NCBI GenBank assembly: GCA_902799245.1
Contig: CADBZY010000007.1
Coordinates: 22,367 to 86,366 of the forward strand
From: an uncultured Ruminococcus sp.
Lineage (GTDB): Bacteria; Bacillota; Clostridia; Oscillospirales; Acutalibacteraceae
Length of the DNA: 64,000 nucleotides
Reading direction: 5' to 3'
The position numbers and the translations under genes were made by a program. Shown here one piece after another: positions 13,831 to 26,253 of the stretch. Below the pieces are notes generated by a model. That model did no database searches. It was not told the DNA's origin and was given only the letters and a program-made list of their open reading frames with translations. Position 1 is the first letter of the stretch. The number at the start of each line of letters is the position of its first letter.

Positions 13831-14050
13831 TTATCCCCCGAATGTCAATAGATTTTTTTTGATGTAAGTCACGAAATTGCCCCGTTTTTCAATATTTCAG
13901 GCGGATTTGACTTCCGTTGTTTTCAACCTGTTGTGGAAAACAATGTGGACAACCACAAAATATGTAAAATTCAAAGACGTATTACACAAAAAAATTTTAA
14001 AAATTTATGAGATTTTTTAATTATATCGCTTATTTCATGCGGTGGATAGT
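13831..14050. promoter_or_regulatory. oriC part 1: DnaA-box-like cluster upstream of dnaA
   Basis: TTATCCCCC (13831), TGTGGAAAA (13932), TGTGGACAA (13944) and GGTGGATAG (14041), in an AT-rich context. Confidence 0.5.
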
Positions 14051-14195: not shown

Positions 14196-15605
14196 ATGGA
14201 AATCACACAGCTTTGGCAAAGTGTCTGCGACAAGCTCAGAGAGCAGGTCAATGACGTTTTATTTAACGTTTGGATAGATCCGCTTGTGCCTCACGATCTT
14301 GTAAACGGTAACGAAATGATCATAATTGCTCCTTCACAGTTTCATAAGGATGTTATCATTGATCAGCACATCGGAGAAAAAATCGAAAAAAACATCTTCA
14401 ATACGATCGGATTTGAGGTCAAGCTCAGAATACTCGTCAAAGGGGAGGACATTCCCGCGGAGTCCGCTGCGGAAAAGAATGAACCCAACTGGCGCGAAGA
14501 GGTGGACAAATACAAAAAGCCCGCATCGGAGCCGGCTCAGCCGTCCAGCCAGCCCCAGGGCCAGATGTACTCTTCCTCCAGCGATTCCTACTATGAATAC
14601 ACATTTGATACATTCATTGTCGGATCCTCCAATAAATTCGCCCATGCCGCCAGCCTTGCCGTCGCAGAGAATCCCGGCGGCGCATACAATCCGCTTTTCA
14701 TCTACGGACAGTCGGGAATGGGCAAGACACATCTGCTCTTTGCCATTCAGAACGCGGTACAGAAGAAGTTCCCGGAAAAAAAGGTCATGTATGTCAAAGG
14801 CGACCAGTTCACCAATGAGCTGATCGAGGCGATAGGGAAGGGCAAGCAGAACGAATTCCATCAGAAATACCGTTTCACCGACGTTCTGATGGTGGATGAC
14901 GTGCAGTTCATCAGCGGCAAGGTACAGACACAGGAAGAATTCTTCCATACATTCAATACACTGCACCAGGAACATAAACAGATCATTCTGACCAGCGACC
15001 GTCCTCCGAAGGAGATACAGACCCTGGAGAGCCGTCTCCGCTCCCGCTTTGAAATGGGACTTCTCGCAGACATCGCACCGCCGGAATTCGAAACCAGAAT
15101 CGCCATTATCAAGCGCAAGGCCAAGCAGTGCAACATGGAGATCAGCGACGAAATCGCAGAATTCATCGCTGAACGTCTGAAGTCCAACATCCGCCAGCTC
15201 GAAGGCGTTGTCAAGCGCATCAACGCAACCTACCAGCTCGACAAGGAGCTGCCCTCGCTGACCATGGCGCAGAACGCCATCCGCGACGTCATGAACGACG
15301 TGCAGCCCACGCCGATCACGATAGAACGCATCATCGAGGAAGTGGCGCGCACCTTTGAAGTGACCGCCGCCGACATCAAATCCCCCAAGCGCGCCGCGCA
15401 GATTTCGCAGGCAAGACAGGTCGCCATGTACGTTGTGCGCGAGGTGACCAACCTTTCCTACGAAGAGATCGGCAAGGAATTCGGCCGCGACCACTCCACC
15501 GCCATTTACGCCGTACAGCAGGTGGAAAGAAACATGAAAAACCGCTCCGATTTCCGCAATACCATTACCGACCTCATCAAAAACATCAAGGTAACGGCGC
15601 AGTAA
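14196..15605 (+). CDS. dnaA: chromosomal replication initiator DnaA
   Basis: Walker A GQSGMGKTHL, AAA+ fold and the C-terminal DNA-binding domain. Confidence 0.96.
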   Translation: MEITQLWQSVCDKLREQVNDVLFNVWIDPLVPHDLVNGNEMIIIAPSQFHKDVIIDQHIGEKIEKNIFNTIGFEVKLRILVKGEDIPAESAAEKNEPNWREEVDKYKKPASEPAQPSSQPQGQMYSSSSDSYYEYTFDTFIVGSSNKFAHAASLAVAENPGGAYNPLFIYGQSGMGKTHLLFAIQNAVQKKFPEKKVMYVKGDQFTNELIEAIGKGKQNEFHQKYRFTDVLMVDDVQFISGKVQTQEEFFHTFNTLHQEHKQIILTSDRPPKEIQTLESRLRSRFEMGLLADIAPPEFETRIAIIKRKAKQCNMEISDEIAEFIAERLKSNIRQLEGVVKRINATYQLDKELPSLTMAQNAIRDVMNDVQPTPITIERIIEEVARTFEVTAADIKSPKRAAQISQARQVAMYVVREVTNLSYEEIGKEFGRDHSTAIYAVQQVERNMKNRSDFRNTITDLIKNIKVTAQ

Positions 15606-15738: not shown

Positions 15739-16047
15739 GGTGGAAAACAAGTCAGCGCCCTTTGATTAACGGCGCGGTTATTAAACCTGATATTCAACAA
15801 TCAACGTGGAAAGCTGTGGAAGAAAGTTGATTGTTAATGGATGTGCAAAACATTTCCCACCTGTTTCCATCCGGATTCAACAAGTTAAAAAATCCGGCTG
15901 CTGATGTATTTTCGGGAACCAATGCCATTTTCCACCATTTCAACCCCCCCTACTGCTGCTACTGTCCTTATCTTATAATTATTATTATATTTATATTTCC
16001 AATATGACTCCGCCGGACGAAAAATGACACGCCCGACGTTTTCCACA
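15739..16047. promoter_or_regulatory. oriC part 2: DnaA-box variants plus an AT-rich stretch that may be the unwinding element
   Basis: GGTGGAAAA (15739), CGTGGAAAG (15805), TGTGGAAGA (15815), TTTCCCACC (15853), TTTTCCACC (15928) and TTTTCCACA (16039). AT-rich run TCTTATAATTATTATTATATTTATATTT at about 15961-16000. Confidence 0.55.
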
Positions 16048-16175: not shown

Positions 16176-17285
16176 ATGAAAATCAAATGCAACCGTGAGA
16201 TGCTATCCGACGCATTAAATAAAGTATCCAGAGCCGTCGCCATTCGCTCCACCATGGCGGCACTGGAAGGAATCTATTTGCGCACGGAGGAAAGTTCGCT
16301 TTACCTCTGCGGCTACAACCTCGAATTGGGCATATCGACCAAGATCCTTGCCAATGTGTACGAGGAAGGAAGCATTGTTCTTTCCTCCAAGCTCTTCTGC
16401 GAAATTGTCAGAAAAATGCCGGGTGACGAACTGGAAATCAAAAGCACGGAAAATCTAATCACCACTATCAGCTCCTCCGAATCGGAGTATTCCATCATCG
16501 GCATGTCTGCCGCCGATTTCCCGGAGCTGCCTGTCATCGAAAGCGACCGCAGAATATCGCTCTCGCAGGGAATGCTCAAATCCATGATAGCGCAGACACT
16601 TTTTGCCGTGAGCGACAACGATTCACGTCCGACCTGTACGGGTTCGCTTTTTGAAATCAACGAGCACCAGCTGCGCGTCGTGTCCGTGGACGGATTCCGT
16701 CTCGCAATGCGCACAGAGCCGATCACAGGTACCTTTGAAACATCCTTTATCGTACCGAAAAAAACGCTCGAGGAAATTCTCAAGCTGCTCGAGGACAACG
16801 AAGATAAACGCGCCGAGATCTGCGCTACGCGCCGCCATATCGAATTTATGATCAATGGATGCACCATTATTTCACGTCTGATAGAAGGCGATTTTCTCGA
16901 TTACAACAACGCCATTCCGAAACAGAACAACAAAGAAGTGAAGGTAAGCACCCGCCGGATGATCGAGGCCAGCGAACGCATGGGTCTGCTGATCAGCGAC
17001 GCCATCAAGAGCCCTGTCCGCTGCGTATTCGGCAACGACGAAATCACTTTCAGCTGCCGCACGGCGGTAGGTTCCGCCACCGACAGACTCTCCGCGGATG
17101 CGCCGAACGAGCCTGTCGAAATCGGTTTCAACAACCGGTATTTCATGGACGCATTCAGGGCGGTTTCCACCGATGAAGTCAGGCTGATCATCGGCTCGCC
17201 AGTCAATCCGGTCAAGGTGCTGCCGCCGGACGGCGAGAGCTTTCTGTTTCTGCTGCTGCCTGTCAGACTGCAAAAGAACGACTGA
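16176..17285 (+). CDS. dnaN: DNA polymerase III beta sliding clamp
   Basis: Three-domain beta clamp of 369 aa, in the canonical position. Confidence 0.95.
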   Translation: MKIKCNREMLSDALNKVSRAVAIRSTMAALEGIYLRTEESSLYLCGYNLELGISTKILANVYEEGSIVLSSKLFCEIVRKMPGDELEIKSTENLITTISSSESEYSIIGMSAADFPELPVIESDRRISLSQGMLKSMIAQTLFAVSDNDSRPTCTGSLFEINEHQLRVVSVDGFRLAMRTEPITGTFETSFIVPKKTLEEILKLLEDNEDKRAEICATRRHIEFMINGCTIISRLIEGDFLDYNNAIPKQNNKEVKVSTRRMIEASERMGLLISDAIKSPVRCVFGNDEITFSCRTAVGSATDRLSADAPNEPVEIGFNNRYFMDAFRAVSTDEVRLIIGSPVNPVKVLPPDGESFLFLLLPVRLQKND

Positions 17286-18656: not shown

Positions 18657-18670
18657 AGGTGGAATATCCA

Positions 18671-18775
18671 TGGAAATCAAAAAAATCAGGTTCCTGGAGC
18701 CGGGAAATTTACCTTACAGACCGTCATTGAAAAATCTCTATGTATATGACAAATATATCCGCACGCCTCCATGAA
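18671..18775 (+). other. 34-codon ORF resembling the first residues of a B12-binding domain, out of frame with the downstream radical SAM ORF
   Basis: Translates as MEIKKIRFLEPGNLPYRPSLKNLYVYDKYIRTPP then a stop. It overlaps the ATG of the next ORF. Confidence 0.3.
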
Positions 18776-19895
18776 TTACCCCGAAGCCTGTGAGCATTGC
18801 GACTACGTGCTGGTGGGCGAAGGGGAAGAGAGCATTTTGGAATTGATGAGCGCTCTTACGAACGATTCGCCGGTGGACGAAGTGAAGGGCGTGGCTTTCA
18901 GACGCGGTGACGAGATCGTCTGCACCGGACAGCGCTGTCCGCCGGCCAATATCGACATCATTCCAAACCGCGATCTGCTCTATCGCTATCAGAAAATGGC
19001 GGGACACAATACCGTCTGGGCGCAGGTGCACGCCTCGCGGGGCTGTCCGCACAACTGTGACTACTGCGCGCTCGTGCGGCATTTCGGGCGGAAGGTGCGC
19101 AAGCGCTCACCGCAGAATATCGTGGACGACATCCGCTATTCCATCGACTTCCACGACAGGCATCATCACCGCTTGGCTAAAATGCTGTGGCTGACGGACG
19201 ATAATTTCTTTGCCGACCGCGAATTGGCGATAGAGGTGCTGCGCGCCATTATTGACAGCGATATTCATTACCATTTCACCATACAGGCGCGGTATGAGGT
19301 CGGATATGACGATGAAATGCTGGAGCTGCTCCGACAGGCGGGATTTGACGAAGTGGCCATGGGCATCGAATTCTTAGAGGACGAGGCCTTTGAAAATTAC
19401 CACAAGAAAAGCACTTACAGGGATATTGTGCGTTCTGTGGAAAATATCCAGCGGCACGGGCTGCGGGTGAGAGGACTTTTCATCGTGGGCGCGGACAATC
19501 ACGAAAAGGGCGTCGGCGACCGGCTTGCCGATTTCGTCATCGAACACAACATCAGCGGTGTGCTGATCCAGTCGATGTATTTTGTACCGGGCACGCCGGT
19601 TTACGAAACGCACAAGGACAAACTCATTCACCGCGACTGGTCAAAATACAACGGCAACGTTGTGCATTATCCTGAACGCATTTCGCCCTATGATCTGCAA
19701 AAGGAGATCATTCACGCCAGCCGTAAAATCTACTCCCGCCGCCGACTGCTGCAGGCGATCCTGCACAAGCGCGGGCTGGAACGGCTGCTGTTTGTGGGCG
19801 AGTACTTCTGGCACAAGAGCGTGCGCGCCGACCTGAAAGCGGATCTGCCGTATTTAAAGCGTGTGACGGAGGAGTCCGCACTGTACCAAGGTTAA
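18771..19895 (+). CDS. B12-binding-domain radical SAM protein, apparently lacking most of the N-terminal cobalamin-binding domain
   Basis: CxxxCxxC motif (GCPHNCDYC). The ORF begins with DYVLVGEGEE, which is the end of a B12-binding domain. Unusual insertion between recF and remB. Confidence 0.55.
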   Translation: MNYPEACEHCDYVLVGEGEESILELMSALTNDSPVDEVKGVAFRRGDEIVCTGQRCPPANIDIIPNRDLLYRYQKMAGHNTVWAQVHASRGCPHNCDYCALVRHFGRKVRKRSPQNIVDDIRYSIDFHDRHHHRLAKMLWLTDDNFFADRELAIEVLRAIIDSDIHYHFTIQARYEVGYDDEMLELLRQAGFDEVAMGIEFLEDEAFENYHKKSTYRDIVRSVENIQRHGLRVRGLFIVGADNHEKGVGDRLADFVIEHNISGVLIQSMYFVPGTPVYETHKDKLIHRDWSKYNGNVVHYPERISPYDLQKEIIHASRKIYSRRRLLQAILHKRGLERLLFVGEYFWHKSVRADLKADLPYLKRVTEESALYQG

Positions 19896-20216: not shown

Positions 20217-20252
20217 ATGTTCCTGCGCGGAGGCGTGTGAACCGATAAAAAA

Positions 20253-20294
20253 TTTGACATATTATTAGTATTATTATACTAATAATATGTCAAA
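20253..20294. repeat. perfect inverted repeat with 18-bp arms and a 6-bp spacer, overlapping the putative gyrB promoter
   Basis: TTTGACATATTATTAGTA-ttatta-TACTAATAATATGTCAAA. A TTGACA hexamer lies on both arms. Confidence 0.7.
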
Positions 20295-20399
20295 AAATTT
20301 AAAAAATAAATATGGCATTTTTCTTCTCTTTATGATATAATATTTTTATATGGATTAATCGCGAAAAACCGGCGCTGCAGCGCGGTCAGACGGGGTTAA

Positions 20400-22538
<2,139 letters not shown>

Positions 22539-22576
22539 TGGTTATCCCCTCGTACTGATTTCACGATAAGGTTGTT

Positions 22577-22600
22577 GCAACAGGAAACAGGAAACCGAAC
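22577..22600 (+). repeat. weak tandem heptamer (AACAGGA x2, then degenerate) after the gyrB stop
   Basis: GCAACAGGAAACAGGAAACCGAAC. Confidence 0.3.
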
Positions 22601-22623
22601 ATTCAACAGCCGCTTAAAAACAA

Positions 22624-22898
22624 TTCCACATCCAATCATTCCCACCAATCGGAAGTTTTTGACGGCTCAGCGTGGAGAATTCCGCAAAACCTGTGGAAAA
22701 CCCTGTGGAAAAGGTTGATAACTCACTGTAATATCGAAAATGACAGCTGCTTTTATTCCAAAGAGTAATTTAAAAATTTGATATTACTTAAGGTTTAAAC
22801 AATTTCCACAGAGTTTTCCACAATCGTATGTTGAATGAAAGTGGATTAAAGGGGAAAGTCTTCCGGCTATTCAAAATCAGGTGGAAAGATGTGGTAAT
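22624..22898. promoter_or_regulatory. third DnaA-box-like cluster, in the gyrB-gyrA intergenic region
   Basis: TGTGGAAAA x2 (22692, 22704), TTTCCACA (22803), TTTTCCACA (22814), AGTGGATTA (22840), GGTGGAAAG (22880) and TGTGGTAAT (22890). Confidence 0.45.
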
Positions 22899-22968
22899 CT
22901 CGTCAGATTATTACAATGAGTATCTTTGACAGTAAGAGAAGTTTTAAACAAGGGGTTTTATCATTACG

Positions 22969-23142
22969 CTGGCTGTTATGGTGCTGGCCGCTCTTGGCCT
23001 GGTAATTCTCGTCGGACTGTCAAAGCATTACCTTCTGGTGCTGCACCTCTATATTCCTCCATCTGCCGCGAAAAATGACGGAGAGTTTGCTGAATGGGAA
23101 AATATTTTGAATGAAATAGTTAATGAATATTCCGATAAGTAA
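22969..23142 (+). CDS. possible small membrane protein (57 aa)
   Basis: ATG ORF MVLAALGLVILVGLSKHYLL...; weak and distant ribosome-binding site; below the track size cutoff. Confidence 0.2.
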   Translation: MAVMVLAALGLVILVGLSKHYLLVLHLYIPPSAAKNDGEFAEWENILNEIVNEYSDK

Positions 23143-23184
23143 TAATTATAACGAAAATTACAAATTATAAAGGAGACTCTTCCT

Positions 23185-23718
23185 ATGGACCCTGCCGATT
23201 ATCCGGAAATGAATAACGATTTATCCGACCTGCAATATTCTATCATATCAGAACAAAGTCCGGAAAATTTCCGCATTGTCAATCTGGTAAAATATTCGGT
23301 CATTATCATATTATCCGTTGCGGCTGTGTTGATCATCTATGCACTCCTCAGCTGGATGGCTAAAAATATTACGGTGCAGCTGTTGATTGTCAGAATGCTG
23401 ATGATGTCATTTATTCCCATTATTGCTATGAGCTTTTTATGCGTTCTGGTGGTAAAAGGTATGCAAACTGCTTTTGGCAGAGTGAAAAGAAATATTAAGA
23501 TCGTCAGATACAACTTTTACGGCGATCATTTTGAGATCGTAGAGGGAGCAAGACTCCGCAGCTTCGGATATGAAAAATTAATAGGGTGTTACAGGATCTT
23601 AGATCACATCGTGCTGATCATCAAGGGAATGTCGCCGCAGTATCTGCCGCCGCAGGTCTTTGAAAACGATATTCAAATGCTGAATTTTGAAACGTTTTTA
23701 CGAATCAAGTTGAAATAA
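23185..23718 (+). CDS. two-transmembrane-helix protein (YcxB-like?), hypothetical
   Basis: AAGGAGA ribosome-binding site. Two transmembrane helices followed by a cytoplasmic domain. Inserted between gyrB and gyrA. Confidence 0.55.
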   Translation: MDPADYPEMNNDLSDLQYSIISEQSPENFRIVNLVKYSVIIILSVAAVLIIYALLSWMAKNITVQLLIVRMLMMSFIPIIAMSFLCVLVVKGMQTAFGRVKRNIKIVRYNFYGDHFEIVEGARLRSFGYEKLIGCYRILDHIVLIIKGMSPQYLPPQVFENDIQMLNFETFLRIKLK

Positions 23719-23748
23719 ATATATTAAGAAACAGGGAGACTACAGCCA

Positions 23749-26253
23749 ATGGAATATGAAGGTCATGAGAATCAAAAAATCATAGAGGTTGACATTAACC
23801 ACGAGATGAAGGATTCCTTTCTCGCTTACTCGATGTCGGTCATCGTGCAGAGAGCGCTGCCCGACGTGCGCGACGGCCTGAAGCCGGTGCACAGGCGTAT
23901 TCTGTACACCATGTTCGAGGACGGACTCTATCCCGAACGCGCCTACAAGAAGTGCGCCACCACGGTCGGTGCCGTGCTGGGTCGTTATCATCCTCACGGC
24001 GATGCTTCCGTGTATGACGCTTTGGTGCGTCTGGCACAGGATTTCTCCATGCGATACATGCTGGTGGACGGACACGGCAACTTCGGTTCTGTGGACGGCG
24101 ACCCGCCTGCCGCTTACCGTTATACCGAAGCCAAGATGAGCAAGATCTCCATGGAAATGCTCACCGACATAGACAAGGAAACCGTAGATTTCACCAACAA
24201 CTTCGACGACTCGCACCAGGAGCCGACGGTGCTGCCGTCACGTTATCCGAACCTGCTTGTCAACGGCTCGACCGGTATCGCCGTCGGTATGGCGACCAAT
24301 ATCGCGCCGCACAATCTGAAGGAAACGATTGACGCGGTTTGTCTGCTGCTCAAAAATCCGGACGCGACGCTCGACGAGCTGATGGAACATATTCAGGGAC
24401 CCGACTTCCCGACAGGCGGCATCATCATGGGACGCGCCGGCATCCGCGCGGCCTACGCCACCGGACGAGGCAAGATCACCGTCCGCGCCAAGGCGGAAAT
24501 AGTGGAACGTCCCAACGGACGCTACCAGATCGTTGTCACGGAGCTGCCTTACCAGGTCAACAAAGCCCGACTGATCGAGAGCATCAGCGACCTTGTCAAG
24601 GAAAAAAGGCTGGAAGGCATCAGCAATTGCGACGACCATTCCGACCGCGAGGGTATGCGGATCACCATCGATGTCAAGCGCGACGCTTCGCCGAATGTGG
24701 TGCTGAATAACCTCTTTAAGAATACACAGATGCAGATCACCTTCGGCGCGATTCACCTTGCCATTGTGGACGGCGTGCCGAGAACCCTCACATTAAAGCA
24801 GATGCTGGAATACTACATCAAGCACCAGCTCGAAGTGATTCTGCGCCGCACGATTTATGACCTTAAAAAGGCAAAGGAACGCGCTCATATATTAGAAGCG
24901 CTGAAAGTCGCCCTTGATTTTATTGATGAAGTCATCGCGATACTGCGTTCTTCCAAGAATATCCCCGAAGGCAAGCAGCGACTCATGGATCGCTTCGGAT
25001 TCGATGAGGTACAGGCGCAGGCCATCGTGCAGATGCGTCTGGCACAGCTCACCGGCATGGAAAAGGAAAAGCTGGAAGCCGAGCTGAAAGCACTGCTGGA
25101 AAAAATCGAGGACTGCAACGACATCATCGCGCGCGAGGAACGCCGCCGCGACATCATTATGGAGGAATCGCAGGAGATAGCCCGCAAATTCGGCGACGAA
25201 CGCAGAACGCAGATAGAAACCATTTCCGGCGAAATGGATATTGAAGACCTCATCAAGGAAGAAGACTGCGTGATCACCTTTACCGCGTTCGGCTATGTCA
25301 AGCGCCAGAAGCTCGACACCTATCAGACCCAGCACAGAGGCGGCCGAGGCGTCAGCGGCATGGCGCGACGGGAAGAGGATGTGCCGACCGAGATGTTTAT
25401 CACGTCCACGCACGATTACGTCATGTTCTTCTCCGACCGCGGAAGGGTCTACAGGCTCAAAGGCTACGAGATTCCGGAGGGTTCCCGTTCGTCCAAGGGC
25501 ATCAATATCGTCAATCTGCTCCCGCTGGAGGGCGACGAAAAGATCACCGAAATGATCCGTGTACAGAAGCAGTATGAGCATGAGATGTACCTCGTCATGG
25601 TGACAAAGAACGGCCTCATCAAGCGCACGGCGCTGAGCGAATTCGGCAATATCCGCAAGAAGGGACTGATTGCCCTGAGCTTGCGCGACGACGATTCCCT
25701 TGTCTGGACGAGGCTGACCAACGGCAGCAATGAACTGCTTGTCGCCACCAAGGGAGGCTATTCCATCCGCTTCAATGAAAACGACGTGCGCGCGATGGGA
25801 CGCGGCGCGGCAGGCGTTCACGCCATCCGGCTGCGCGAAGGCGACGAAGTCATCGGCATGTCCACGCTGCGCGAAGGCGGCAGAGTGCTGACCGTCAGTG
25901 AAACCGGCTACGGCAGACTGACGCCGATTTCCGACTACCGTCTGCAAAGCCGCGGCGGAATGGGAATCAAGAATTACCGCAGCGAGAACGGCAATGTTGC
26001 CGCGATTCGTGTGGTTGACAATGACGACGACGTGATCATTATCAACAGCTCCGGCGTGATTATCCGCATTGCCGTCAGCGAGATCAGAGAATGTGCGAGG
26101 CCGAGTAAGGGCGTTCGCGTGATGAAGATCGAGGACGGCGGCAAGGTTGTGGCGCTGGCGAGAGTCAAACACGAGGAAGGCGAAGAAACCGACGCGGTGG
26201 ACAATACCGTGGAGGACGAACCGGCGGAAGAAGAAGAGGCAGGTAGCAGGTAG
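23749..26253 (+). CDS. gyrA: DNA gyrase subunit A
   Basis: Active-site tyrosine region AAMRYTEA, a QRDR-like segment and beta-pinwheel repeats. Acidic tail. The stop lies inside a heptamer repeat. Confidence 0.96.

What the first reader, a model, noticed from the sequence alone, without database searches (positions are those of the whole stretch)
22624..23718. Third DnaA-box cluster and two inserted genes between gyrB and gyrA
Clostridia usually have gyrB and gyrA adjacent. Here they are 1.2 kb apart. The gap holds at least 7 copies of the same variant DnaA box found in oriC (TGTGGAAAA/TTTTCCACA), plus a 57-codon small ORF and a 177-aa two-transmembrane-helix protein. All three DnaA-box clusters use T at the third position of TTATCCACA (TTTTCCACA), a lineage-specific variant. 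The extra cluster could be a DnaA-titrating or regulatory locus like the B. subtilis DnaA-box clusters, or a part of a split oriC.
Basis: partly seen in the sequence, partly recalled or inferred. Interest (0 to 1): 0.55.

Follow-up and report, generated by a model that had tools for sequence, protein, structure and literature searches.

The report
DnaA-box cluster between gyrB and gyrA
The 1.2-kb gap between the two gyrase genes holds a conserved cluster of binding sites for the replication initiator DnaA, separate from the real origin 6.7 kb away; it is a new example of a known kind of origin-proximal DnaA site, next to an older inserted membrane-protein gene.

Summary
The cluster is real. 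gyrB ends at 22538 and gyrA starts at 23749. The first ~380 bp of the gap is the richest 300-bp stretch for DnaA boxes in the 64-kb window. It has 3 exact TTTTCCACA, 1 box with one mismatch, and about 6 weaker boxes with a CCAC or CAAC core. "At least 7 copies of the same variant" is therefore overstated.

The core is two "double DnaA boxes" (3-bp spacer) in inverted orientation, 110 bp apart. Only three such doublets occur in 64 kb (0.03 expected); the third lies upstream of dnaA.

Seven related rumen Acutalibacteraceae-like species keep the boxes, their orientation and their spacing. The arms are 79-91% identical, against 61-67% at silent sites of gyrB.

It is not part of the unwinding origin. 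The DnaA-trio run and the AT-rich unwinding element lie in the dnaA-dnaN spacer, and the gap cluster has neither.

The 177-aa gene is YcxB-like. More distant relatives carry a same-family gene tightly packed between gyrB and gyrA with no boxes. The small ORF is a deletion relic of a second, 378-aa YcxB-like gene.

Best reading: a B. subtilis-type DnaA-box cluster outside oriC that gates transcription into ycxB/gyrA, sequesters DnaA, or both. This is a new member of a known kind, of modest interest.

The parts
20436..22538 (+). gyrB (left flank of the gap)
   Evidence: Pfam HATPase_c, DNA_gyraseB, Toprim and DNA_gyraseB_C.
22622..22630 (+). Weak DnaA box AATTCCACA (2 mismatches)
   Evidence: The TCCAC core is kept in most relatives.
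22645..22665 (.). Conserved block that is not a DnaA box, CCAATCGGAAGTTTTTGACGG; role unknown
   Evidence: Invariant in 4 species and partly kept in L019 and L035. No -10 element at a suitable distance.
22671..22679 (-). Weak DnaA box TTCTCCACG (2 mismatches)
   Evidence: Box-like (1-2 mismatches) in 6 of 7 species.
22692..22721 (-). Left arm: double DnaA box TGTGGAAAA-ccc-TGTGGAAAA plus the abutting weak box GGTTGATAA
   Evidence: Exact matches and double-box scan. Invariant or one mismatch in 6 of 7 species. The same 27-nt module recurs in other genomes.
22706..22734 (+). Possible promoter: -35-like TGGAAA (22706-22711, inside the box), 17-nt spacer, -10-like TAATAT (22729-22734) preceded by TG
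   Evidence: Read from the sequence. TGTAATAT is kept in all species, and L019 has TGTTATAAT. It scores 8 of 12, below the scanner's threshold. Inferred, not shown.
22722..22793 (.). AT-rich centre (72% A+T) between the arms; its length is conserved but its sequence is not
   Evidence: Identity 66-71%, close to the silent-site rate. Inner-box distance 109-112 bp in 7 species. Among the 0.7% least stable 40-mers, but not the 15 least stable.
22802..22822 (+). Right arm: double DnaA box ATTTCCACA-gag-TTTTCCACA, inverted relative to the left arm
   Evidence: (inverted repeat I1).
22840..22898 (-). Three weaker boxes: AGTGGATTA (22840), GGTGGAAAG (22880), TGTGGTAAT (22890)
   Evidence: The GTGGA(A/T) cores are conserved.
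22939..22955 (+). Conserved block AAGTTTTAAACAAGGGG, carrying the ribosome-binding site of the first downstream gene in relatives
   Evidence: Alignments. In L015 it lies directly before the ycxB-like start codon.
22948..23142 (+). Small ORF (ATG at 22978, 54 aa): in-frame deletion relic of a 378-aa double YcxB-like gene
   Evidence: BLASTP matches residues 46-72 and 349-377 of the L024 378-aa protein. That protein hits PF14317 at 2.4e-16.
23185..23718 (+). 177-aa YcxB-like protein with two transmembrane helices
   Evidence: Translation. It is 61-63% identical to P0002 and P0004, which carry PF14317. The L024 orthologue scores 25.5 bits against a 23.3 cutoff. The window protein itself gives no PF14317 hit.
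23749..26253 (+). gyrA (right flank), 30 bp after ycxB; possible own promoter TTTACG-17-TATATT at 23697-23725
   Evidence: Pfam, promoter scan, and upstream regions in relatives.
15928..16006 (+). For comparison, the canonical unwinding module of oriC in the dnaA-dnaN spacer: TTTTCCACC, ATTTCAACC, a C run, the trio-like run CTACTGCTGCTACTG, then the AT-rich unwinding element
   Evidence: 4th least stable 40-mer of the 64 kb; conserved in L025 and L028; only trio run of 5 or more.
13932..13952 (-). For comparison, the third double DnaA box of the window, in the rpmH-dnaA spacer

Best explanation
A roughly 300-bp non-coding element (about 22620-22915) is a secondary, high-affinity DnaA-binding region outside oriC. 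It is the same kind of thing as the B. subtilis DnaA-box clusters (DBCs).

Anatomy: the core is two double DnaA boxes in inverted orientation, 110 bp apart. Each is extended by weaker boxes, giving about 10 sites in 280 bp.

Position: it lies directly after gyrB and ahead of the ycxB-like gene(s) and gyrA. In more distant relatives these three genes form one tightly packed operon.

Proposed mechanism: DnaA oligomers nucleate on the two doublets. They then either occlude a weak promoter whose -35 lies inside the left doublet, or block RNA polymerase reading through from gyrB. Transcription entering ycxB, and possibly gyrA, would thus depend on DnaA occupancy. As a side effect the site holds DnaA 6.7 kb from the origin and is duplicated early in each round of replication.

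Shown: the sites, their statistics, their conservation and spacing, and the absence of origin-unwinding features.

Inferred: DnaA binding itself, the promoter, and the direction of regulation.
For: - Box enrichment.
- The double-box format matches the unit that E. coli DnaA prefers in vivo (PMC11317965).
- The same box type flanks dnaA and sits next to DnaA-trios in the dnaA-dnaN spacer, so it is this lineage's DnaA box.
- The arms are 79-91% identical between species. 4-fold sites of gyrB are 61-67% identical and the post-gyrB flank 44-58%.
- Box spacings of 12 and 110 bp are kept in 7 species.
- The two arms do not co-vary. Each box stays box-like independently, which fits protein binding sites rather than a hairpin.
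- The identical module TGTGGAAAAnnnTGTGGAAAAGGTTGA lies upstream of guaB, dut and an ogg-like gene, on the same strand, in other Oscillospirales MAGs. These are nucleotide and DNA-metabolism genes typical of DnaA regulons. It also lies in the dnaA-dnaN spacer of L023.
- TGTAATAT (TGTTATAAT in L019) is conserved 17 nt after a -35-like TGGAAA.
- No terminator was detected after gyrB.
- gyrB-ycxB-gyrA is a tight operon in L032 and L033.
- In B. subtilis some DBCs are known both to regulate neighbouring genes and to restrain initiation, and DBCs are said to be usually oriC-proximal in Firmicutes (PMC3245932).
Against: - There are no binding or expression data.
- The putative promoter scores only 8 of 12, and the scanner found none in the element.
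- The central region evolves nearly neutrally.
- gyrA may have its own promoter at the 3' end of ycxB, so control of gyrA is not established.
- Conserved blocks that are not boxes (22645-22665, TATTAC at 22909) are unexplained and could belong to another factor.
- Only 64 kb of this genome was seen, so other clusters and the genome-wide box density are unknown.
Confidence: 0.5

Rival explanations
1. A pure DnaA sink or inactivation site (like E. coli datA, or like DBC[yydA-yycS]). The cluster exists to hold or inactivate DnaA next to oriC and so restrain re-initiation. Any effect on neighbouring genes is incidental.
For: - It lies 6.7 kb from the unwinding element, so it is duplicated right after initiation.
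- About 10 sites sit in 280 bp.
- Spacing rather than central sequence is conserved, which fits a nucleoprotein architecture more than a promoter.
- Deleting the six B. subtilis DBCs causes over-initiation, and the effect depends on closeness to oriC (PMC3245932).
- E. coli has a box-rich, origin-proximal titration zone (PMC12371093).
Against: - In B. subtilis only two of six DBCs affect initiation, and no feature that distinguishes them is known.
- The same module sits upstream of guaB, dut and ogg elsewhere, which looks like transcription control.
- The element always sits at the head of the ycxB gene(s), with a conserved -10-like motif.
- This reading and the best explanation are not mutually exclusive.
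Confidence: 0.3
2. A third sub-region of a split oriC, or a second unwinding site. DnaA bound here would loop to the dnaA-flanking clusters, or open the AT-rich centre.
For: - The origin already has two box clusters flanking dnaA, as in B. subtilis and C. difficile (PMC7561715).
- The centre is 72% A+T and among the 0.7% least stable 40-mers.
- The 110-bp spacing is kept.
Against: - There is no DnaA-trio run: at most 2 next to the strong boxes, against 5 at box 15928.
- There is no GC cluster.
- The boxes face away from the AT-rich centre, opposite to the arrangement in the basal unwinding system.
- The unwinding element with trios is in the dnaA-dnaN spacer and is conserved there.
- The cumulative GC-skew minimum is at 16-17 kb.
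- An origin at 22.7 kb would put dnaA through gyrB head-on to replication.
- The element is absent in L032, L033 and R. bromii.
Confidence: 0.05
3. Not a DnaA element. It would instead be a structured leader RNA or small RNA, a cruciform-forming palindrome, or the operator of another regulator that happens to resemble DnaA boxes.
For: - There is a quasi-palindrome, 22692-22723 against 22791-22822, 81% complementary.
- Conserved blocks that are not boxes exist.
- A weak Rfam hairpin-type hit was found (MIR4245, E=0.4).
Against: - No Rfam family reached significance.
- RNAalifold gives only -8.7 kcal/mol over 287 columns, with an unfavourable covariation term.
- The arms change independently without compensation.
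- The conserved 9-mers are the same as those around dnaA and next to the DnaA-trios.
Confidence: 0.07

Closest known systems
Bacillus subtilis DnaA-box clusters outside oriC (DBCs, e.g. DBC[yydA-yycS], ywlC, sda; Ishikawa 2007, Okumura 2012, PMC3245932)
   Same: - Several DnaA boxes lie in one intergenic region close to, but outside, oriC in a Firmicute.
- The cluster sits next to or on a promoter region.
- The expected dual role is gene regulation and restraint of initiation.
   Different: - The location differs: inside the gyrB-gyrA pair, which is not a B. subtilis DBC site.
- The architecture is a symmetric pair of inverted double boxes 110 bp apart.
- The organisms are uncultured, so binding and phenotype are untested.
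E. coli double DnaA boxes at DnaA-regulated promoters (Stringer, Fitzgerald and Wade 2024, PMC11317965)
   Same: - Two boxes in the same orientation are separated by 3 bp.
- The same module lies upstream of nucleotide and DNA-metabolism genes (guaB, dut, ogg) in relatives.
   Different: - Here two doublets plus about 6 weaker boxes are combined in one element.
- The box is TTTTCCACA rather than TTATCCACA.
- No ChIP data exist.
E. coli datA
   Same: It is an origin-proximal cluster of high-affinity DnaA boxes that is not an origin and could lower free or active DnaA after initiation.
   Different: - datA works with IHF and promotes hydrolysis of DnaA-bound ATP. Neither an IHF site nor such activity can be assessed here.
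- The sequences are not homologous.
oriC basal unwinding system (DnaA boxes, DnaA-trios and an AT-rich element; PMC8287927, PMC7561715)
   Same: It has tandem DnaA boxes and a nearby AT-rich stretch.
   Different: - It has no DnaA-trio run and no GC cluster, and the boxes are oriented away from the AT-rich stretch.
- The genuine module lies in the dnaA-dnaN spacer of the same window.

Membership tests
DnaA-box cluster outside oriC (B. subtilis-type DBC) | Several DnaA-box matches clustered in a short non-coding stretch, well above background | tested here: met
   The best 300 bp holds 3 exact, 4 with <=1 mismatch and 12 with <=2 mismatches, the top window of 64 kb. It holds 2 of the 3 double boxes, against 0.03 expected.
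DnaA-box cluster outside oriC (B. subtilis-type DBC) | Separate from the origin's own box clusters but close to the origin | tested here: met
   It lies 6.7 kb from the unwinding element at 15967-16006, with six genes in between (dnaN to gyrB).
DnaA-box cluster outside oriC (B. subtilis-type DBC) | Stable DnaA binding in vivo or in vitro | not testable with these tools
   This needs ChIP-seq or binding assays with the cognate DnaA.
DnaA-box cluster outside oriC (B. subtilis-type DBC) | Deletion changes initiation frequency or expression of neighbouring genes | not testable with these tools
   The organisms are uncultured rumen MAGs.
Double DnaA box (binding unit for a DnaA dimer) | Two boxes in the same orientation, 2 or 3 bp apart | tested here: met
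   22692/22704 and 22802/22814 both have a 3-bp spacer. The 12-bp start-to-start distance is invariant in 7 species.
oriC basal unwinding system | At least 3 consecutive DnaA-trios (3'-NAN-5') within 16 bp of a DnaA box | tested here: not met
   The strong gap boxes have at most 2. Box 15928 in the dnaA-dnaN spacer has 5. A run of 3 occurs by chance at 28% of boxes.
oriC basal unwinding system | AT-rich unwinding element directly downstream of the boxes and trios | tested here: not met
   The AT-rich centre lies on the 5' (TTTT) side of both arms, and it is not among the 15 least stable 40-mers of the window.
oriC basal unwinding system | Coincides with the GC-skew switch | tested here: inconclusive
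   The cumulative minimum is at 16-17 kb with 2-kb windows. That favours the dnaA-dnaN spacer, but the skew is confounded by gene orientation and the resolution is low.
E. coli datA-type site | IHF site and stimulation of hydrolysis of DnaA-bound ATP | not testable with these tools
   No sequence test is available.
YcxB-like protein (PF14317), for the 177-aa ORF | Match to the PF14317 profile above the gathering score | tested here: inconclusive
   The window protein gives no PF14317 hit even at E<=1. Its 61%-identical orthologue in L024 scores 25.5 bits against a 23.3 cutoff, and P0002 and P0004 carry PF14317.
YcxB-like protein (PF14317), for the 177-aa ORF | Two N-terminal transmembrane helices followed by a ~60-residue C-terminal domain | tested here: met
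   Hydrophobic stretches lie at about residues 35-57 and 66-90. In orthologues the domain maps to residues ~110-172.
Structured cis-regulatory RNA or small RNA | Rfam match, or a conserved structure with covariation | tested here: not met
   No Rfam hit below E=0.4. The RNAalifold covariation term is +0.78.

The most novel reading that the evidence does not exclude
The element may be a DnaA-operated gate inserted into an ancestral gyrB-ycxB-gyrA operon. In this genus the supply of gyrase subunit A, and of a membrane YcxB protein, would then be tied directly to the state of the replication initiator. The fixed geometry (two inverted double boxes exactly 110 bp apart) could reflect a looped or bridged DnaA complex that also inactivates or stores DnaA. 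That would be a Clostridial counterpart of datA with a defined architecture.
Probability: 0.15. Interest if true: 0.55.

Novelty: new member of a known kind. Interest (0 to 1): 0.3.

Why it matters
Origin-proximal DnaA-box clusters are thought to help control initiation in Firmicutes, which lack SeqA and Hda. Only the B. subtilis ones have been studied, and no structural rule separates active from inactive clusters. This element offers a compact, phylogenetically footprinted example: two inverted double boxes, an invariant 110-bp spacing, and a nearly neutral centre. It sits in an unusual place, between the gyrase genes. That hints at a link between initiator status and gyrase expression, which could be tested with purified DnaA and reporter fusions. 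For annotating these rumen genomes, it also shows that the origin proper is the dnaA-dnaN spacer. The 'extra genes' are an older YcxB-like insertion plus a deletion relic.

Tried and rejected
- **Structured RNA.** The Rfam scan of 22400-23900 found nothing significant. RNAalifold on six species gave weak energy and an unfavourable covariation term, and the predicted pairs were just opposed boxes. Rejected.
- **Hairpin or cruciform maintained by pairing.** The arms change independently without compensation. Rejected.
- **Internal ~178-bp tandem duplication** (suggested by repeats D1, D2 and D4). Aligning the two units gives only scattered identity. The box layout is loosely repeated, but a duplication is not supported.
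- **Basal unwinding system or second origin.** The trio scan was negative.
- **Sigma-70 promoter scan.** No hit of 9 of 12 or better lies inside the element. The promoter proposed here is weaker and was read by eye.
- **Metagenome scan** with the 31-nt module returned a single contig (L029), the same species as L011. It added little.
- **DnaA-box cluster upstream of gyrB** in the window and in R. bromii. None was found.
- **Literature.** Searches for DnaA boxes between gyrB and gyrA, or upstream of gyrA, found no precedent. A search for YcxB function found nothing.
- **Direct similarity** between the window's 177-aa protein and the YcxB-like protein of L033 is only 21% (E=0.04). They share family and position, but orthology is not shown.

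Full report
**Layout.** On the + strand the window carries dnaA (14196-15605), dnaN (16176-17285), an S4-domain gene, recF, a radical-SAM gene, a RemA-like gene, gyrB (20436-22538) and gyrA (23749-26253). The gyrB-gyrA gap is 1210 bp. The cumulative GC-skew minimum is at about 16-17 kb.

**The observation.**
- Exact TTTTCCACA occurs 7 times in 64 kb against 0.72 expected. Three of these are in the gap, at 22692(-), 22704(-) and 22814(+).
- ATTTCCACA at 22802 has one mismatch.
- With two mismatches, further sites with a CCAC or CAAC core appear at 22622, 22671, 22713, 22840, 22880 and 22890.
- The gap is the best 300-bp stretch of the window at all three stringencies.
- So the cluster is real, but 'at least 7 copies of the same variant' holds only for the TCCAC core. 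There are 3 exact copies.
- The strong sites form two 'double boxes' with a 3-bp spacer, 22692/22704 and 22802/22814. They are in inverted orientation, with their CCACA ends pointing outward, and flank a 72% A+T centre.
- Only three such doublets exist in the 64 kb. The third is at 13932, upstream of dnaA. Markov simulations give 0.03.
- In E. coli, pairs of boxes 2-3 bp apart are the unit DnaA binds in vivo (PMC11317965).

**Are these DnaA boxes?**
- The same 9-mer type fills the rpmH-dnaA and dnaA-dnaN spacers.
- In the dnaA-dnaN spacer, TTTTCCACC-ATTTCAACC is followed by a C run and the trio-like run CTACTGCTGCTACTG. Next comes the fourth least stable 40-mer of the window (15967-16006).
- This matches the C. 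difficile trio 5'-CACCTACTACTATTACTACTATGA and the published definition of the basal unwinding system (PMC7561715, PMC8287927).
- The module is conserved in two sister species.
- The origin's unwinding module is therefore in the dnaA-dnaN spacer, and TTTTCCAC(A/C) is this lineage's DnaA box.
- T at position 3 lies within the relaxed consensus TTWTNCACA and is also used in other families. It is not a lineage-specific novelty.

**Conservation.**
- Contigs of the same species repeat the layout.
- Six further species carry the element in the same place. All are rumen MAGs labelled Clostridiales, Oscillospiraceae or Acutalibacteraceae, with GyrA 81-96% identical. They are L011/L012/L028/L029, L015/L017/L018, L024, L025, L019, L035, and a degraded copy in L031.
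- Against the window, the arms are 79-91% identical in L024, L011 and L015. 4-fold sites of gyrB are 61-67% identical. The stretch just after the gyrB stop is 44-58%, and the AT-rich centre 66-71%.
- Start-to-start box distances are kept. They are 12 bp in both doublets in all seven species, and 110 bp between the inner boxes in five (109 and 112 in the other two).
- The two arms do not co-vary. The right inner box drifts (ATTTCCACA, GTTTCAACA, ATTTCAACC and others) while the left stays fixed. Selection therefore acts on each site, not on pairing.
- Rfam and RNAalifold give no support for an RNA.

**The genes in the gap.**
- The 177-aa protein has two hydrophobic helices.
- It gives no Pfam hit itself. 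It is 61-63% identical to proteins that carry PF14317 (YcxB-like), one of them above the gathering score.
- The small ORF (54 codons from ATG 22978; 64 open codons) matches residues 46-72 and 349-377 of a 378-aa double YcxB-like protein that sits at the same place in L024. It is an in-frame deletion relic.
- Gene content of the gap varies. Some species have one YcxB gene (L015), some two (L011, L012, L024). L019 has broken YcxB ORFs plus a Fic-domain gene.
- More distant relatives (GyrA 73-75%; L032, L033) have gyrB, YcxB-like gene(s) and gyrA packed with 0-14 bp between gyrB and the next gene. They have no non-coding spacer and no box cluster.
- In Ruminococcus bromii, gyrB and gyrA are 30 bp apart.
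- The YcxB insertion is thus wider, and probably older, than the box element. The element is confined to the clade with GyrA 81% identical or more.

**Function.**
- The 27-nt module TGTGGAAAAnnnTGTGGAAAAGGTTGA was found once per genome in ten species representatives.
- Besides the four gyrB-gyrA cases, it lies upstream of guaB (L020), dut (L026) and an ogg-like glycosylase (L021, L027), on the same strand. It also lies in the dnaA-dnaN spacer of L023. One hit, in L022, is inside a coding repeat and is chance.
- These are the kinds of genes DnaA regulates elsewhere.
- In the window, a -35-like TGGAAA inside the left doublet is followed after 17 nt by TAATAT preceded by TG. This motif is kept in every species and is TGTTATAAT in L019.
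- No terminator follows gyrB.
- I therefore favour a DnaA-operated control point, by promoter occlusion or roadblock, at the head of the ycxB-like gene(s), with sequestration of DnaA as a side effect.
- Whether gyrA depends on it is open. AT-rich, -10-like sequences lie just upstream of gyrA in most species.
- A pure titration or inactivation role, as shown for two B. subtilis DBCs (PMC3245932), fits about as well and is not exclusive.
- The split-origin reading is unlikely. There is no trio run, the boxes face the wrong way, the unwinding element is elsewhere, and close outgroups lack the element.

**Comparison and novelty.**
- Okumura et al. state that DBCs are usually near oriC in Bacillus and in many Firmicutes and Actinobacteria.
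- This element is a new member of that kind.
- What is new is its place between the gyrase genes, for which I found no published precedent, and its symmetric geometry with fixed spacing.

**Unexplained.** These features have no assigned role: the invariant non-box block at 22645-22665, the conserved TATTAC at 22909, the GTTTAAAC-like blocks, and the reason for the 110-bp constraint.

Noticed in passing
window 20246-20301 (also L024 3122-3155, L011 2117-2162): A long palindrome (26-nt arms, 88% complementary, 4 nt apart) lies in the RemA-like/gyrB spacer and overlaps a TTGACA. It is kept in two sister species, with symmetric changes in both arms (ATTATT/AATAAT versus ATAATT/AATTAT). It may be an operator or a supercoiling-sensitive feature of the gyrB promoter.
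   Followed up: partly
window 18670-19895: The radical-SAM gene is a damaged copy of a 481-aa B12-binding radical-SAM gene that is intact in the same-species contig L004. Residues 1-34 are in one frame, residues 105-481 in another, and about 70 codons are deleted. The gene is absent from sister species, where recF is followed directly by the RemA-like gene.
   Followed up: partly
L020 (~6295), L026 (979), L021 (4406), L027 (4128), L023 (2729), all oriented with the module on +: The module TGTGGAAAAnnnTGTGGAAAAGGTTGA(A/T)AAC recurs upstream of guaB, dut and an ogg-like glycosylase in other Oscillospirales MAGs, and inside the dnaA-dnaN spacer of a distant Bacillota MAG. This outlines a possible DnaA regulon.
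   Followed up: partly
window 15928-16006: The dnaA-dnaN spacer holds a textbook unwinding module: a box, a weak box, a C run, CTACTGCTGCTACTG, then an 85% A+T stretch. It is conserved in L025 and L028 and pins the origin.
   Followed up: yes
L019 4876-5763 (- strand): In this relative a 295-aa Fic/DOC protein with a Bro-N-like N-terminus is inserted in the gyrB-gyrA gap beside broken YcxB-like ORFs. The gap therefore acts as an insertion slot.
   Followed up: partly
L001-L010 (same species as the window): dnaA is called as 469 aa in some contigs and 532 aa in others, so the start codon is uncertain. An upstream 53-aa ORF is called in some.
   Followed up: no
window 22645-22665: The invariant block CCAATCGGAAGTTTTTGACGG inside the element is not a DnaA box and matches no motif I recognise.
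   Followed up: partly
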